This document shows positions 4,823 through 19,995 of a stretch of DNA of 20,000 bases, piece by piece. The position numbers and the translations under genes are program-made. The notes below the pieces were generated by a model, which saw nothing but the letters and a program-made list of their open reading frames with translations, did not search any database and was not told where the DNA came from. The stretch lies in IMG/VR virus record IMGVR_UViG_3300031993_000054; one strand, written 5' to 3'. Origin of the DNA: an uncultured virus (IMG/VR IMGVR_UViG_3300031993_000054) (lineage: Duplodnaviria; Heunggongvirae; Uroviricota; Caudoviricetes). How positions within the stretch are numbered: position 1 is the stretch's first letter; every line of letters begins with the position of its first letter.

Positions 4823-4854
4823 CAAAAATAGGAGATTTTTTTGAAATCCACAAA
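4823..4854 (-). promoter_or_regulatory. Bacteroidota housekeeping-type promoter for the head/tail operon
   Basis: Minus strand TTTG (4854-4851), 20 nt, TATTTTTG (4830-4823). Confidence 0.75.
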
Positions 4855-4867
4855 GTTTGGCCCACTT

Positions 4868-4900
4868 TTTGCAAATAATCGCCCCTTTTTCGTATCTTTG
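4868..4900 (+). promoter_or_regulatory. Bacteroidota housekeeping-type promoter for terL-portal
   Basis: TTTG (4868-4871), 21 nt, TATCTTTG (4893-4900). Confidence 0.75.
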
Positions 4901-17821: not shown

Positions 17822-17852
17822 CAAAGATACGTATTATTTTTGATTAAACAAA
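17822..17852 (-). promoter_or_regulatory. Bacteroidota housekeeping-type promoter for replication genes
   Basis: TTTG (17852-17849), 19 nt, TATCTTTG (17829-17822). Confidence 0.75.
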
Positions 17853-18769
17853 TTTTCTCCCAAATTGAATATCCTCCGCTCTGCCATGTCCCTATATTCC
17901 GGATTCAATTCAATTCCTACGAAATTCCTATGCAAATTCCGTGCCACAATGCCCGTAGTTCCGCTCCCCATGAAGCAATCGAGCACAATTCCTCCCTCCG
18001 GACACCCCGCGAGCACGCACGGCTCGATGAGTTTCGGCGGATATGTGGCAAAATGCGCTTCCTTGTTGGAATACGTTGCGACCGTCCACACGTCCCTCTT
18101 GTTCCGGACGAACCGGCCGTCCTCCTCCTTCGGCACCCACGGATTTCCGGAATAAGTACCACCACCCACGATAGAATCTCCATACTTGGATCCGCCGAAG
18201 CGAATCCCGGGATTCCAATCTTCCTGGGTGACGGCCTCTTCCATGATGGCCTTGTAGTCGAAATAGTACCTGGGACTCTTGCTCAGCAACAGGATATGCT
18301 CGTGGCTGCTGATGCACCTGTCCTTCATCGGCGCCGGCATCGGATTTGCTTTCGCCCAGATGATGTCCTGGCGCAAGTACCAGCCGGCATCACGGAGCGC
18401 GAAGGCCAGCATCCAGGGGATGCCCAGCAGATCCTTCTCCTTGGCGCCCTTCCGGACGGTATGGAGGTTCTTCCGATCTCCAAAGCCGCACCGGCCCTTA
18501 CTGATCACTCCGCATCGGCCAGCGTAGGAATCACCAATCACTATCCAGCAGGTGCCATCCTTCCTCAGTACCCGGTACACCTCAGAGAACACGTCAACGA
18601 GGCGGGCGATGTACTCGCTCGCGTCTTCCTCCTGGCCAATCTGGCCGGGAACGTTGTAGTCTCTCAGGGAGAAGTATGGAGGGGAAGTGACGCAGCAGTG
18701 GACACTCTCATCCTCGAACGTGCGAAGGACGGAGGCTGCATCCCCCAGATAACAGTGATTCAATTCCAT
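17834..18769 (-). CDS. Orphan N4-cytosine/N6-adenine DNA methyltransferase (beta class)
   Basis: Catalytic TSPPY near the N-terminus, IIWAK, HFATYP, SAM-binding DCFMGSGTT, GIELN. Confidence 0.93.
   Translation of the reverse strand: MELNHCYLGDAASVLRTFEDESVHCCVTSPPYFSLRDYNVPGQIGQEEDASEYIARLVDVFSEVYRVLRKDGTCWIVIGDSYAGRCGVISKGRCGFGDRKNLHTVRKGAKEKDLLGIPWMLAFALRDAGWYLRQDIIWAKANPMPAPMKDRCISSHEHILLLSKSPRYYFDYKAIMEEAVTQEDWNPGIRFGGSKYGDSIVGGGTYSGNPWVPKEEDGRFVRNKRDVWTVATYSNKEAHFATYPPKLIEPCVLAGCPEGGIVLDCFMGSGTTGIVARNLHRNFVGIELNPEYRDMAERRIFNLGENLFNQK
17932..17946 (-). promoter_or_regulatory. Sigma54 (RpoN)-type -24/-12 motif inside MTase gene
   Basis: TGGCACG-GAAT-TTGC(A); identical 15-mer at 19636-19650. 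Confidence 0.5.
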
Positions 18770-18788: not shown

Positions 18789-18871
18789 TGCCCGGCACAG
18801 GATTCGGACCTGCGACCCCACGGTACTTGCTGGATGCCTCCCGTGCGCTCTACCAACTGAGCTAACCAGGC
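18789..18871 (-). tRNA. tRNA-like gene with 17-nt expanded anticodon loop (no assignable anticodon)
   Basis: GCCTGGT/GCCGGGC acceptor, GCTC-AGTTGGTA-GAGC D arm, CACGG-GAGGCATCCAGCAAGTA-CCGTG, T arm GCAGG-TCCGAAT-CCTGT, A73; no encoded CCA. Confidence 0.75.
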
Positions 18872-18875
18872 TTTG

Positions 18876-18949
18876 TTGCGGGGGCGGGACTCGAACCCGC
18901 GACTGTCCTGGTTATGAGCCAGGCGTGCTACCAACTGCTCTACCCCGCT
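18876..18949 (-). tRNA. tRNA-Met(CAT), initiator-like
   Basis: AGCGGGG/CCCCGCA acceptor with 1:72 mismatch, anticodon arm CCTGG-CTCATAA-CCAGG, T arm GCGGG-TTCGAGT-CCCGC, A73. Confidence 0.9.
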
Positions 18950-19001
18950 ATGTCAATTACTGTCTTTCCAGCGTCACCATTGCCCGTAATTGAGCCATGA
19001 A

Positions 19002-19150
19002 CATTATACCGGCAACCCTTTCATCCGACGCACCCGGCATCTAACAGACTTAGAGTGGCATTACCGGGTTGAGGGACCTGGTGCGTCATATTACGGACCT
19101 ATCCAAGACGGTGTGCCTGGTTCGCACCCCCGCATTATAGCCGGAAACCT
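19002..19150 (-). ncRNA. Candidate structured RNA in tRNA spacer
   Basis: Helices GACGCACC/GGTGCGTC, CAACCC/GGGTTG, GGTA/TGCC, TCTAA/TTAGA, GTGC/GCAC; flanked by imperfect 18-nt direct repeats. Confidence 0.4.
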
Positions 19151-19152
19151 CG

Positions 19153-19223
19153 AAGTCCTGACGAGAATCGAACTCGTGCCCGGCAGTTTTCCACCACCCC
19201 CTCTCCCACTGAGGTACAGGACT
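19153..19223 (-). tRNA. tRNA-like gene with degenerate anticodon arm (nominal GAA, G33)
   Basis: AGTCCTG/CAGGACT acceptor, CCTC-AGTGGGA-GAGG D arm, GGTGG-TGGAAAA-CTGCC (two G.U pairs, no U33), T arm ACGAG-TTCGATT-CTCGT, U73. Confidence 0.7.
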
Positions 19224-19270
19224 TACAAATACACAAAAACTTACAAAATCACCGCATCACTGCGGAACTG

Positions 19271-19345
19271 CTCCCGGTAGAGGAATCGAACCCCTATTGC
19301 CATGTGCGATACCGCTAAGCGTCCTGACCGTTAGACGAACCGGGA
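19271..19345 (-). tRNA. tRNA-like gene (Glu/Gln-type D arm) lacking a canonical anticodon loop
   Basis: TCCCGGT/ACCGGGA acceptor, GTCTAACGGTCAGGAC D arm, middle GCTTA-GCG-GTAT-CGC-ACATGGC, T arm AGGGG-TTCGATT-CCTCT, G73. Confidence 0.75.
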
Positions 19346-19354
19346 AAAAGCCTT

Positions 19355-19609
19355 CTACATGGCCGCGAAGAGTTCCTTGTAGTGCTTGGTGCACTCCTCC
19401 TCGGAGGCAAACAGGGTGTTCTCGGGCGTGTTGATGCCATTCTTGAGGGTGTAGATGGCCACGCACTCATCCAGAACGTCCACGCCCTCTTCGTTGGCGT
19501 GCACATTGGTGGCGATGATCTTGATTCCCTGGACGGTGCTGCTCTCAACCTTCTGAGAGGCGTCATTGAAGTACGATACCTGATCGCAAATGTCGAATTT
19601 TGTCTTCAT
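19355..19609 (-). CDS. Hypothetical protein (KTKFDI.D.V, SH3-like small phage protein)
   Basis: ATG 19609 after an A/T-rich leader; 84 aa; LFASEEE C-terminal pattern. Confidence 0.7.
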   Translation of the reverse strand: MKTKFDICDQVSYFNDASQKVESSTVQGIKIIATNVHANEEGVDVLDECVAIYTLKNGINTPENTLFASEEECTKHYKELFAAM

Positions 19610-19653: not shown

Positions 19654-19995
19654 TTATCGTTCGTCACCCTCTCCGCCGATTTTTCCACGCTCAGCACGGG
19701 AATGGAGTTTGTCATAGTTCATCTGGGCAATATCCTCAAGGGTAAACCCAAGTTCCTTTGCGCCCATAGCCACATACCAAAGCACGTCGCCGAGTTCGTG
19801 GGCCAGGTCCATCCGGCGTTTCTCGGTTATGACCTTGTGGTCATCACGCTTAACCTTCTTAAACTTATTGGCCACCTCGCCGCTTTCGCCACACAGGCCA
19901 CCAACGCAATAATTTACATCATCCCACTGGGTGTCTCCTTCCTCGTGGTAGTTGGCCGTCTCTGCGGCCTTCATCTGATACTCATTCAGTGTCAT
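19654..19995 (-). CDS. mazG: MazG-like nucleoside triphosphate pyrophosphohydrolase
   Basis: MTLNEYQ, GLCGESGEVANKFKK, HELGDVLWYVA, NYDKL...R motifs. Confidence 0.9.
   Translation of the reverse strand: MTLNEYQMKAAETANYHEEGDTQWDDVNYCVGGLCGESGEVANKFKKVKRDDHKVITEKRRMDLAHELGDVLWYVAMGAKELGFTLEDIAQMNYDKLHSRAERGKIGGEGDER

What the first reader, a model, noticed from the sequence alone, without database searches (positions are those of the whole stretch)
18789..19345. Array of tRNA mimics: intact acceptor/D/T arms, destroyed anticodon arms
Seen: three of four tRNA-shaped genes keep fully paired acceptor, D and T stems with D-loop GG and T-loop CGA, yet each has a differently remodelled anticodon arm (17-nt loop; G33 with two G.U pairs; tetraloop with internal loop). 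Random pseudogene decay should hit all arms. None encodes CCA. Inference: selection keeps the elbow and acceptor shape but not decoding. Possible roles are decoys or inhibitors of tRNA-targeting defences (anticodon nucleases such as PrrC/RloC, PARIS, tRNA-modifying toxins), modulators of synthetases or the stringent response (mazG is adjacent), or RNase P/Z processing signals that release the spacer RNAs. This is the best candidate for an undescribed system in the window.
Basis: partly seen in the sequence, partly recalled or inferred. Interest (0 to 1): 0.82.

Follow-up and report, generated by a model that had tools for sequence, protein, structure and literature searches.

The report
Non-decoding tRNA look-alikes in phage RNA hub
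A cattle-gut phage keeps three well-preserved tRNA-shaped genes that cannot read codons, next to a previously uncatalogued folded small RNA, and they most likely act as handles that tell host tRNA-trimming enzymes where to cut.

Summary
On the minus strand, 19345-18789 carries four tRNA-shaped genes. One is an initiator-like tRNA-Met. Three have intact acceptor, D and T arms but non-decoding anticodon arms:
- D has a mini-hairpin.
- C has a 6-bp stem with a GGAAA loop (G33).
- A has a 7-bp stem with a 13-nt loop.

They are not decaying pseudogenes. In relatives the stems, anticodon stems included, change by compensatory pairs. For family A, 11 of 23 pairs change on both sides and 0 of 500 shuffles reach this.

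"Destroyed" overstates it. The arms are remodelled into closed hairpins.

The habit runs through the phage clade: 29 of 44 tabulated tRNA-shaped genes have non-canonical anticodon arms.

The 200-nt "spacer" is a structured RNA family absent from Rfam 15. Fifteen of its 22 pairs covary. Two metatranscriptome runs hold it as a discrete contig. A tRNA or tRNA look-alike follows it at fixed spacing in 10 of 13 hubs.

Best reading (0.42): the tRNA bodies are kept as RNase P/Z processing and stability modules of a phage small-RNA hub. Decoy and scaffold roles remain open, and no cleavage has been shown.

This scan has noted similar anticodon-less phage tRNA mimics on other DNA. I found no description in the papers I searched.

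The parts
19271..19345 (-). tRNA look-alike D. It has a Glu-type D arm (U11-A24, U13.G22). The anticodon arm is replaced by a 3-bp helix, an internal loop, the 3-bp helix GCG/CGC and a tetraloop. It starts 9 nt after the stop of the 84-aa ORF.
   Evidence: ARAGORN; parse and fold. Four distinct orthologs are 100% paired in 22 pairs, but with little variation. The ortholog in G003 scores 35.9 bits on RF00005.
19242..19265 (-). Terminator-like hairpin (CCGCA-GUGA-UGCGG) and U-rich tail directly after D.
   Evidence: The segment is conserved in L007/L008 (alignment) and at 93% identity in L005/L006.
19153..19223 (-). tRNA look-alike C ('Phe GAA' with G33). Its anticodon arm is really a 6-bp stem with a GGAAA pentaloop.
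   Evidence: Rfam 46.3 bits. Window versus L007 shows compensatory changes at 6-67, 49-65, 31-39 and 32-38.
18950..19152 (-). Hub sRNA, a structured RNA of about 190-200 nt with no Rfam match. It ends in a covarying hairpin with a GAAAGA/GAGAGA loop.
   Evidence: No Rfam hit at E<=10. 13 distinct homologs. 15 of 22 pairs are compensatory, 93.6% of cells are paired and 0 of 500 shuffles reach this. RNA-run contigs lie on 18965-19138 and 18960-19131.
18875..18949 (-). tRNA-Met(CAU) with a canonical anticodon loop and an initiator-like 1:72 mismatch. It occupies the slot right after the sRNA.
   Evidence: The 1:72 mismatch is kept as A.A, C.U, C.U and U.U in 4 of 5 orthologs.
18789..18871 (-). 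tRNA look-alike A. It has a 7-bp extended anticodon stem and a 13-nt loop holding CCA. Its T loop is UCCGAAU. It ends 19 nt before the methylase start codon.
   Evidence: Rfam 43.8 bits. Family of 6 distinct sequences: 94.9% of cells paired, 11 of 23 pairs compensatory, 0 of 500 shuffles.
19355..19609 (-). 84-aa ORF (p98) of unknown function. It precedes the RNA hub in most relatives.
   Evidence: tblastn on relatives. No Pfam, NCBIfam or PHROG family.
17834..18769 (-). N6/N4 DNA methylase gene directly after the hub. Most relatives lack it, and there the hub abuts the primase gene.
   Evidence: Pfam PF01555, E 2.6e-51; layout in relatives.

Best explanation
The region is a small-RNA hub of a roughly 70-77 kb tailed phage of cattle-gut bacteria, probably Bacteroidota. 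Its conserved core is a structured sRNA of about 190 nt. tRNA-shaped genes are placed around the sRNA.

Some of these genes are working tRNAs: the initiator-like Met here, and Leu, Ser, Lys and Asn in relatives. Many others, including D, C and A of this window, have lost decoding and keep only the tRNA body.

Proposed mechanism (inferred, not shown): the body, made of the acceptor/T minihelix and the D/T elbow, is what RNase P, RNase Z and the CCA-adding enzyme recognise. Each tRNA-shaped module would therefore give the hub transcript defined cuts. These cuts would release the sRNA and separate it from the flanking mRNAs, leaving compact, nuclease-resistant RNAs. Because no codon has to be read, the anticodon arm is free to be rebuilt. 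It must still close as a hairpin so that the body folds.

Shown here: the folds, their selection, the sRNA family, the fixed sRNA-tRNA tandem, and presence of the sRNA in RNA libraries.

Inferred: cleavage by RNase P/Z, and that this is the reason the bodies are kept.
For: (1) Selection on structure.
- Family A, 6 distinct sequences: 94.9% of cells paired, 11 of 23 pairs changed on both sides, 0 of 500 shuffles as high, and 40-59% paired in the slid controls.
- C, window versus L007: four compensatory pair changes.
- D: all three stem substitutions among 4 orthologs keep pairing.

(2) The anticodon arm varies without limit while the bodies stay canonical. In the 44-row table of the clade, 29 rows have non-canonical arms. 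These range from a 3-nt loop, through 8-, 10-, 12- and 14-17-nt loops and non-U33 loops, to inserts of about 35-56 nt. Acceptor, D and T stems are nearly all fully paired (records).

(3) The sRNA is real. 13 distinct homologs, 15 of 22 pairs compensatory, 0 of 500 shuffles.

(4) Slot equivalence. The sRNA is followed by a tRNA-shaped gene 21-25 nt after its GGUGA motif in 10 of 13 hubs. The occupant is a canonical tRNA (Met, Leu, Ser) in 7 of these 10 and a look-alike in 3. A canonical tRNA has to be cut out, so the look-alikes sit where RNase P must act.

(5) Two metatranscriptome runs hold a 173-176-nt contig that covers only the sRNA, at depth 20-35. The neighbouring ORF contig has depth 7.

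(6) Canonical and non-canonical genes share one 3' signature, a C after N73, in 43 of 44 rows. This suggests the same 3' maturation.

(7) Precedent. Plant-mitochondrial t-elements are tRNA-like folds proposed as RNase P/Z signals (PMC1920247, abstract). GOLLD and ROOL RNAs lie near tRNAs in phages, possibly co-transcribed (PMC5737381, passages).
Against: - No RNA end, cleavage, CCA addition or charging state has been observed. Contigs cannot show ends. The two sRNA-bearing runs come from one study.
- No RNA contig covers C, Met or A. Only one touches D.
- In this window D and A do not flank the sRNA. D follows an ORF and precedes a terminator-like hairpin. A follows Met and precedes the methylase gene.
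- RNase P and RNase Z do not need an anticodon arm. Even so, the anticodon stems are kept by compensatory change, and all 6 family-A loops hold CCA. This hints at a function of the arm itself.
- Closely related phages (primase 88-91% identical) have swapped modules: C for an A33 Asn-like gene, and A for tRNA-Leu. That turnover is more typical of an arms-race locus than of a housekeeping signal.
- tRNA-shaped genes are confined to the hub and do not punctuate the genome.
Confidence: 0.42

Rival explanations
1. Decoys or sponges. The look-alikes accumulate as stable tRNA-shaped RNAs. They bind host or rival-phage factors that recognise the tRNA body, such as tRNA-cleaving defence nucleases, and cannot be cut or used. 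This would protect the real tRNA pool.
For: The bodies, elbow nucleotides included, are conserved while the usual nuclease target, the anticodon loop, is replaced. Modules turn over quickly and anticodon arms are hypervariable among close relatives, as expected in a conflict locus. Phage tRNAs that counter tRNA-targeting defences are established (titles and abstracts in the listing: eLife 2023 PMC10264068, PARIS PMC11464382, retron PMC11555353).
Against: The known cases are working replacement tRNAs, not decoys. A decoy for an anticodon nuclease would be expected to keep a target-like loop, and A and D do not. No defence or nuclease partner is identified. No binding or expression evidence for the look-alikes themselves was obtained.
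Confidence: 0.2
2. Natural tRNA scaffolds. The tRNA body is a carrier for processing and stability, and the rebuilt anticodon arm is the active part. This would be a small aptamer or pairing loop such as the CCA-bearing loop of A or the GGAAA loop of C.
For: CCA is present in all 6 family-A loops although loop length and the rest of the loop vary. C keeps GGAAA while the closing pairs covary. Relatives carry 35-56-nt folded inserts at the same place. Three orthologs of the 'GUAUAA' family share a U-rich segment within their inserts.
Against: Inserts are poorly conserved within families. Searching the window for a site complementary to A's loop found only the loop's own locus and a 3-mismatch site that has the same sense as the loop rather than being complementary to it. 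The six A sequences are related, so shared CCA is weak evidence.
Confidence: 0.15
3. C, and the non-U33 tRNAs of relatives, are working tRNAs made resistant to anticodon nucleases by changing position 33.
For: G33-GAA-A37 is identical in the window and L007. Relatives carry an A33 Asn(GUU)-like gene and a C33 Ser(GCU) gene. Colicin E5 absolutely requires a pyrimidine before G34-U35, and changing that U to A or G abolishes cleavage (PMC1635277, abstract and passages).
Against: In L007 positions 32 and 38 changed together from U-A to C-G. This gives a Watson-Crick pair that closes the loop to 5 nt. From general knowledge, such a loop is not compatible with normal decoding. N73 is U, whereas from recall tRNA-Phe has A73. 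Only two distinct C sequences exist. This reading cannot apply to A or D.
Confidence: 0.1
4. They are intron-bearing or otherwise matured tRNAs. The extra loop nucleotides would be removed to give a normal anticodon loop.
For: The extra nucleotides lie in the anticodon loop, where tRNA introns usually sit. Insert sizes in relatives range from 3 to about 56 nt.
Against: For A, none of the 8 ways of removing 10 contiguous loop nucleotides leaves U33 (read from the sequence). A relative has a 3-nt loop, so nothing could be removed there (G008a). Pfam finds no RNA ligase, RtcB, kinase-phosphatase or splicing endonuclease among 122 ORFs of complete relative G003. No joint was seen in the RNA runs, but no RNA contig covers A either.
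Confidence: 0.04
5. They are decaying tRNA pseudogenes with no function.
For: Anticodon regions change faster than bodies. In D, 3 of 25 positions differ against 1 of 50. In C, 4 of 17 differ against 5 of 54 (window versus L007).
Against: Compensatory changes occur in all stems of family A and of C. Orthologs are retained across phages whose spacers have diverged to about 50-60% identity. Decay would also hit the acceptor, D and T arms.
Confidence: 0.05

Closest known systems
t-elements of plant mitochondria, within the tRNA-punctuation idea (Forner et al. 2007, PMC1920247; abstract read)
   Same: tRNA-like folds that do not decode. They sit at the ends of other transcripts and are proposed as cis-signals for RNase P and/or RNase Z.
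   Different: They are organellar, not phage. Here the folds are complete cloverleaves with covarying anticodon stems, clustered in one hub beside real tRNAs and an sRNA. No ends have been mapped here.
YrlA, the bacterial and phage Y RNA with a tRNA-like domain (Rfam RF02553; Chen et al. 2014, PMC4201824; passages read)
   Same: A non-decoding RNA that copies the tRNA D arm, T arm and acceptor-like stem. It is recognised by tRNA enzymes (TruB, DusA; RNase P and CCA addition in M. smegmatis) and also occurs in phages.
   Different: In YrlA the acceptor-like stem is a closed stem-loop, the RNA's ends lie elsewhere, and the gene sits next to Ro60. Here the ends are at the acceptor stem as in a tRNA. 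RF02553 scores 30.4 bits against a cut-off of 69. No TROVE/Ro60 family was found among 122 ORFs of relative G003.
Phage tRNAs with anticodon-loop changes that evade host tRNA nucleases (van den Berg et al. 2023, PMC10264068; abstract seen; a term search of the text for U33, position 33, insertion and similar gave 0 hits)
   Same: Phage-encoded tRNA genes whose anticodon loops depart from the host's. This is a possible reading for C and for the non-U33 genes of relatives.
   Different: Those are decoding tRNAs with point changes in a 7-nt loop. A and D have no usable loop, and C's loop is closed to 5 nt.
GOLLD and ROOL large ncRNAs (Weinberg et al. 2017, PMC5737381; passages read)
   Same: Structured ncRNAs of unknown function, often in phages or prophages and often next to tRNA genes, possibly co-transcribed. 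ROOL was first seen in cow rumen data.
   Different: They are about 580-800 nt. The hub sRNA is about 190 nt and matches neither family nor any other Rfam 15 family at E<=10.
tRNA-like vtRNAs of murine gammaherpesvirus 68 (recalled, not read here); the engineered tRNA scaffold for RNA expression (recalled; PMC3753655 seen only in the listing); B. cereus pseudo-tRNA 'tRNA-Other' (PMC3399842, listing abstract only)
   Same: tRNA-shaped, non-translating RNAs used as processing or stability handles, or as regulators.
   Different: Different hosts and machinery. None is a family of phage genes with hypervariable anticodon arms.

Membership tests
Canonical tRNA (Rfam RF00005) | Score at or above the family's gathering score (29 bits) | tested here: inconclusive
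   A scores 43.8 and C 46.3, so both are met. D has no RF00005 hit in the window, but its ortholog in G003 scores 35.9.
Canonical tRNA (Rfam RF00005) | 7-bp acceptor stem, 4-bp D stem and 5-bp T stem, with GG in the D loop and UUCGA-type T loop | tested here: met
   All stems of D, C and A are fully paired. A's T loop is UCCGAAU (C55).
Canonical tRNA (Rfam RF00005) | 5-bp anticodon stem with a 7-nt loop, U33 and a purine at position 37 | tested here: not met
   A has a 17-nt loop (or 7 bp plus 13 nt). C has G33 and a covarying 32-38 pair. D has a tri- or tetraloop hairpin.
Canonical tRNA (Rfam RF00005) | 3' CCA present or added, and aminoacylation | not testable with these tools
   CCA is not encoded in the window. 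It is encoded after the D orthologs of L005 and L075. There are no data on charging.
YrlA / Y RNA (RF02553) | Rfam gathering score of 69 bits | tested here: not met
   30.4 bits, on a stretch spanning the T arm of Met and the D arm of A.
YrlA / Y RNA (RF02553) | Encoded next to a Ro60 (TROVE) gene | tested here: not met
   No such family in the window's ORFs (15 scanned) or in 122 ORFs of complete relative G003.
tmRNA (RF00023) | Rfam match with a tag reading frame | tested here: not met
   No hit in the window. Relaxed ARAGORN 'tmRNA' calls merely bridge neighbouring tRNAs. Relatives L076, L083 and L090 carry a separate true tmRNA gene at 59-68 bits.
t-element / processing-signal tRNA mimic | tRNA-like fold without decoding capacity, located at the boundaries of other RNAs | tested here: met
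   C ends at the start of the sRNA. D starts 9 nt after an ORF. A ends 19 nt before an ORF. In relatives, look-alikes occupy the slot after the sRNA.
t-element / processing-signal tRNA mimic | Mapped RNase P/Z cleavage at the mimic | not testable with these tools
   Only contigs of RNA runs were available. They stop 11-21 nt inside the sRNA's boundaries, which cannot define ends.
Intron-bearing tRNA | Removing one contiguous insert restores a canonical anticodon loop, and a splicing route exists | tested here: not met
   No 10-nt deletion in A's loop leaves U33 (sequence). No splicing or ligation enzymes by Pfam in relative G003. No joints in RNA runs, though coverage of A is lacking.
Nuclease-resistant decoding phage tRNA | Decoding-competent 7-nt loop with point substitutions | tested here: not met
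   A and D have no such loop. In C, 32-38 covaries as a Watson-Crick pair (U-A to C-G), giving a 5-nt loop.
GOLLD / ROOL (for the sRNA) | Rfam match | tested here: not met
   No family matches the spacer at E<=10.

The most novel reading that the evidence does not exclude
The hub is a conflict locus. The phage makes a set of exchangeable, anticodon-less tRNA bodies whose rebuilt arms are the business end. They would act either as uncleavable baits for tRNA-targeting immune nucleases or as displayed loops that dock onto the co-transcribed 190-nt structured RNA to build an RNA-only or RNA-protein particle. Together with the similar mimics this scan has noted in other uncultured phages, this would define a widespread, undescribed class of phage tRNA-scaffold RNAs.
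Probability: 0.2. Interest if true: 0.85.

Novelty: new variant of a known kind. Interest (0 to 1): 0.64.

Why it matters
Phage tRNA genes are normally read as codon supplements or as nuclease-proof replacements. In this clade most tRNA-shaped genes cannot decode, yet they are kept by selection. They stand in fixed register with a new structured RNA that is present in rumen RNA libraries.

If the bodies are processing handles, this would be a tRNA-punctuation-like system in a phage of bacteria, which I did not find described in the papers searched. It would also be a natural counterpart of the engineered tRNA scaffold. If they are decoys, they would be a new kind of anti-defence RNA.

In both cases annotation pipelines that call them 'tRNA-Phe', 'tRNA-Ala' or 'pseudo' mislead. 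The hub sRNA is a ready candidate for a new RNA family.

Tried and rejected
Searches that led nowhere or gave only known records:
- GenBank phages hold nothing like A, C or D alone at E<=1e-3. The whole array matched only generic tRNA parts.
- The window's assembly is not held, and the nearest record, G001, lacks the region.
- L001, L004 and L021 are the same phage at 99.98% identity, so they add no comparison.
- Methylase-based loci L002 and L003 carry no array.
- A strict pattern for family A in IMG/VR gave 9 loci: 3 were already-known contigs (including the window's near-identical twin), 1 was a new member (L065), 1 was a different odd tRNA (L058), and 4 were ordinary tRNA-Ile caught by accident.
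- The D pattern found only the 5 known contigs.
- The sRNA pattern found 5 known viral contigs. In 185,579 species genomes it found one hit, in a Saprospiraceae MAG, which looks like a chance match: AT-rich, no wider similarity, no tRNA nearby.

Analyses that gave nothing usable:
- The single-sequence fold of the spacer is no better than shuffles (z 0.44). Only the comparative analysis shows structure.
- The search for a target complementary to A's loop in the window found only its own locus and a 3-mismatch site that has the same sense as the loop, not complementary to it.
- RNA runs: no joints, and no RNA contig over C, Met or A, so nothing can be said about their expression or splicing. X15 is probably DNA. 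The short 'joint' rows at 18903/18847 are other organisms' tRNAs.
I replaced it with RF00005 searches of whole records and a smaller Rfam call.

Readings considered and dropped:
- An archaeal host with bulge-helix-bulge introns. Against it: the Met tRNA's 1:72 mismatch is a bacterial initiator trait (recalled), and the Bacteroidota-type promoter motif occurs 3 times against 0.14 expected.
- attP-type partial tRNA copies. Against it: both halves of each cloverleaf are present and pair.
- A link to the stringent response through MazG (see the interpretation verdict).

Literature: I found no description of anticodon-less tRNA-shaped genes in phages of bacteria in searches. The library lacks most subscription journals, so this is not proof of absence. 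No supplements were read.
Full report
**What is there.**

The window is part of a tailed phage. Pfam finds the following:
- major capsid protein E;
- a VRR-NUC nuclease;
- a helicase;
- a D5-type primase at 17759-16230;
- an N6/N4 methylase at 18769-17834;
- MazG at 19995-19654.

All genes near the finding are on the minus strand. Read in that direction, the order is:
- MazG;
- an 84-aa ORF (19609-19355);
- tRNA look-alike D (19345-19271);
- a terminator-like hairpin (19265-19252 plus a U tract);
- look-alike C (19223-19153);
- a 200-nt spacer (19152-18950);
- tRNA-Met (18949-18875);
- look-alike A (18871-18789);
- the methylase start codon 19 nt later.

**Check of the observation.**

Rfam's tRNA model hits A at 43.8 bits, C at 46.3 and Met at 53.9, against a cut-off of 29. 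It does not hit D. ARAGORN calls D as an 'Ala' with the anticodon at position 38. D's ortholog in a relative reaches 35.9 bits.

My parse confirms fully paired acceptor, D and T stems in all three look-alikes, GG in the D loops and CGA in the T loops. Two details should be added:
- A's T loop reads UCCGAAU (C55).
- The 'normal' tRNA-Met has mismatches at 1:72 and 11:24.

**Relatives.**

The window's own assembly is not held. A near-identical contig (99.98%) adds nothing.

Searching with the primase gave 17 IMG/VR loci (69-100% identity) and 24 metagenome loci, many on the same contigs. tblastn shows a conserved layout: mazG, the small ORF, an RNA hub, sometimes a methylase, then primase and a DUF6371 gene. 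Records judged complete are 66-77 kb.

Runs that hold the stretch are bovine or sheep gut metagenomes by their records. The Bacteroidota-type promoter motif TTTG-N17-23-TAnnTTTG occurs 3 times in the window against 0.14 expected. The ORFs I looked at lack Shine-Dalgarno sequences (read). A Bacteroidota host is therefore my inference.

**Are the look-alikes under selection?**

*Family A* has six distinct members: the window, L012, L083, L082, L013 and L065. On the cloverleaf with a 7-bp anticodon helix:
- 94.9% of 138 cells pair;
- 11 of 23 pairs show changes on both sides;
- 0 of 500 shuffles reach any of four of the five measures (13 of 500 reach the fifth, further pair types);
- sliding the partners drops pairing to 40-59%.

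The compensatory pairs lie in the acceptor stem (5), the T stem (3) and the anticodon helix (3). The D stem is invariant. The loop is 10-13 nt, differs widely and always contains CCA.

*C* has only two distinct sequences, the window and L007/L008. They differ by paired changes at 6-67 (U-A to C-G), 49-65 (A-U to G-C), 31-39 (G-C to U-A) and 32-38 (U-A to C-G), while GGAAA stays. The last change makes a Watson-Crick 32-38 pair, so the arm is a 6-bp stem with a pentaloop. It is not a 7-nt anticodon loop with an odd base.

*D* has four distinct sequences at 97% column identity. All 22 pairs of my model pair in all four. The three stem substitutions keep pairing (G-C to G-U, U-G to U-A, G-U to U-A). 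There is too little variation for a test, since 117 of 500 shuffles do as well. Changes in D concentrate in the small hairpin loop (GUAU, AUAU, AUU).

The anticodon arms, however, are rebuilt hairpins under their own pairing constraint. They are not wrecks.

**A habit of the whole clade.**

RF00005 searches of 15 whole records, an Rfam scan of further loci and ARAGORN gave the 44-row table. The table includes two duplicate rows and two genes of a more distant phage.

Fifteen rows have a canonical loop: Met x5, Leu x3, Lys x2, Asn x2, Ser, and the two genes of the distant phage. Twenty-nine rows do not. These include:
- a 3-nt loop (G008a);
- an 8-nt loop (G010c);
- 10-nt loops (G007a, G005_32854);
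- a 12-nt loop (G004b);
- family A;
- G33, A33 and C33 loops;
- folded inserts of about 35-56 nt (G010b, G009a, G007b, G008b, G015a, G006_119).

The bodies are almost all perfectly paired. In 43 of the 44 rows the base after N73 is C, in canonical and non-canonical genes alike. One family that follows the sRNA in several relatives keeps an invariant D arm and variable-region motif, while its insert ranges from about 13 to 45 nt.

Close relatives have exchanged modules. L005, L006 and L075 carry an A33 Asn-like gene where the window has C. L007 and L008 carry a normal tRNA-Leu(AAG) where the window has A.

**The spacer is an RNA gene.**

BLAST first showed that part of the spacer is conserved in relatives that lack C or A. 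A 7-sequence alignment gave 30 predicted pairs, 9 of them compensatory. A profile search of all loci found more distant copies.

For the 13-sequence alignment:
- 22 consensus pairs and 93.6% of cells paired;
- 15 pairs with changes on both sides;
- 0 of 500 shuffles as high on all five measures;
- slid controls at 30-46%.

By eye, a terminal hairpin with a GAAAGA or GAGAGA loop also covaries. No Rfam 15 family matches the spacer at E<=10. A motif scan found it only in this phage group in IMG/VR. In 185,579 species genomes the scan found one match that looks like chance.

Two metatranscriptome runs of one study each hold a contig of 173-176 nt lying only on 18960-19138, at depth 20-35. The neighbouring ORF contig has depth 7. 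Contigs cannot show ends or strand, so this is presence in RNA libraries and a weak hint of a discrete molecule.

**The sRNA-tRNA tandem.**

In 10 of 13 distinct hubs a tRNA-shaped gene starts 21-25 nt after the sRNA's GGUGA motif. That is 5-10 nt after the terminal hairpin.

One search gives these distances. For the window its regular expression caught a later motif and printed 18. Read from the sequence, the distance is 24.

The three exceptions are:
- L010, with 53 nt;
- L011, with no terminal hairpin and 0 nt;
- L005, where an HNH-type ORF is inserted.

In the 10 fixed-spacing hubs the occupant of the slot is:
- tRNA-Met (window, L007, L075, L090);
- tRNA-Leu (L013, L083);
- tRNA-Ser (L014);
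- a family-A look-alike (L065);
- a 'GUAUAA'-family look-alike (L009, L089).

L010 and L011 also carry a 'GUAUAA'-family look-alike there.

A working tRNA in that slot must be cut out by RNase P (established biology). The look-alikes therefore sit exactly where such a cut is made. Upstream of the sRNA the occupant is C, the A33 Asn-like gene, a canonical tRNA-Asn, or simply the end of the small ORF.

**How it most likely works.**

I commit, at about 0.4, to the body-as-handle reading. The tRNA bodies are kept because host tRNA-maturation enzymes recognise them. Each module then sets cuts in the hub transcript, freeing the sRNA and separating it from the mRNAs, and itself ends up as a compact stable RNA. 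Where the phage does not need the codon-reading function, the anticodon arm is free to change as long as it closes.

This accounts for:
- the conserved bodies;
- the unlimited variety of arms;
- the shared 3' signature;
- the interchangeability of real tRNAs and look-alikes;
- the fixed tandem.

Steps shown: the folds, the selection, the sRNA family, the tandem, and RNA presence. Steps inferred: the cleavages, and that they are the selected function.

Several points count against it:
- No ends were seen.
- D and A do not flank the sRNA in this window.
- The anticodon stems are better kept than RNase P/Z would require.
- CCA is invariant in A's loops.
- Module turnover looks like an arms race.

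These points keep two readings alive. One is the decoy reading (0.2). The other is the scaffold reading (0.15), in which the rebuilt arm is the active part.

For C alone, a nuclease-resistant decoder is conceivable. Colicin E5 needs a pyrimidine at position 33 (PMC1635277), and relatives have A33 and C33 genes. The covarying 32-38 pair argues against it (0.1).

Splicing is unlikely for four reasons:
- No deletion in A's loop restores U33.
- A relative has a 3-nt loop.
- Pfam finds no ligase or endonuclease among 122 ORFs of a complete relative.
- No joints were seen, with the caveat that coverage is lacking.

Neutral decay is contradicted by the covariation.

**Comparison with what is known.**

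- *Plant-mitochondrial t-elements* work most like this (PMC1920247, abstract). From recall, so do the tRNA-like RNAs of murine gammaherpesvirus 68 and the engineered tRNA scaffold.
- *YrlA* is structurally the nearest described bacterial or phage tRNA mimic (PMC4201824, passages). Membership fails on score (30.4 against 69 bits), on topology and on the missing Ro60 neighbour.
- *The sRNA* shares with GOLLD and ROOL a phage context, proximity to tRNAs and, for ROOL, a rumen origin (PMC5737381, passages). It is much smaller and matches neither.

A survey of candidate structured RNAs in viruses mentions 'tRNA or tRNA-like structures' without this anatomy (PMC10690425, passages). I found no paper describing anticodon-less tRNA-shaped genes in phages of bacteria. 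The library is incomplete, and I read no supplements.

**Earlier notes of this scan.**

A word search returned eight AI notes on other genomes. They describe anticodon-less or insert-bearing tRNA mimics in uncultured phages:
- one 'before primase' in a pig-gut phage;
- one 'fused to a conserved RNA';
- one set built on tRNA-Glu bodies in a Bacteroidota-type phage.

Three of the eight are marked 'part of it fell'. They are not evidence, and none shares sequence with this window. They do show that the scan has met this kind of thing before, and that the processing-signal and YrlA comparisons were also reached there. My reading was formed before I saw them (note).

**Verdict.**

I class it as a new variant of a known kind (tRNA mimics and processing handles). 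It comes with a bonus: a new structured phage sRNA in fixed tandem with tRNA-shaped genes. Function remains unproven. The decisive data are RNA end maps and RNase P/Z assays.

Noticed in passing
window 18875-18949 (-); orthologs L007 1805-1878, L016 32-105, L005 1946-2018, L075 3821-3893: The phage tRNA-Met keeps a mismatch at 1:72 in 4 of 5 orthologs (A.A, C.U, U.U, C.U). L075 has A-U there. Four of the five also have a mismatched pair in the D stem: A11.A24 in the window, L007 and L016, and A10.G25 in L005. From recall, a 1:72 mismatch is the bacterial initiator hallmark, but only two G-C pairs close the anticodon stem. This may be a phage initiator tRNA.
   Followed up: partly
L083 3425-3827, L076 520-931, L090 3350-3761 (and L016 206-615 by ARAGORN): Some relatives carry a full tmRNA gene (Rfam 59-68 bits) in the same hub, beside the sRNA and tRNAs.
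   Followed up: no
window 19654-19995 (-) MazG; relative G003 20139-21206 (L097 1139-2206, -): A complete relative encodes a 355-aa adenylosuccinate-synthetase-like protein that matches phrog_1211, '2-aminooxy adenylosuccinate synthetase' (PurZ type, E 7e-37). Together with MazG this suggests a 2-aminoadenine (Z-base) genome. It is not known whether the window's own phage has this gene.
   Followed up: partly
L005 about 1500-1940: An HNH-type endonuclease ORF is inserted between the sRNA and tRNA-Met in one relative. This is a possible driver of module exchange in the hub.
   Followed up: no
window 4823-4854 (-), 4868-4900 (+), 17822-17852 (-): Three exact matches to the Bacteroidota-type promoter motif TTTG-N17-23-TAnnTTTG, against 0.14 expected. 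One lies just upstream of the primase gene. This hints at the host phylum.
   Followed up: partly
all tRNA-shaped genes of the clade (table): In 43 of 44 rows the base after the discriminator is C, most often followed by A (CAA or CAG). Full CCA is encoded in only 3 rows: L005_D, L075_D and G005_Leu. The meaning for 3' maturation is unknown.
   Followed up: no
L005 1206-1278 (and its L075 ortholog); L030 (G005 24951-25035): Relatives carry an Asn(GUU)-like gene with A33 and a Ser(GCU) gene with C33. With G33 in C, that makes three different non-U33 loops in one phage group.
   Followed up: partly
L007 1884-1967, L013 5070-5154: The canonical tRNA-Leu of relatives has anticodon AAG (A34). From recall this is unusual for bacteria. 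L083 has UAG at the same gene.
   Followed up: no
window 18789-18871 (-) and G006 22486-22604 (L028): Two otherwise different look-alikes share the T loop UCCGAAU (C55 in place of the near-universal U55).
   Followed up: no
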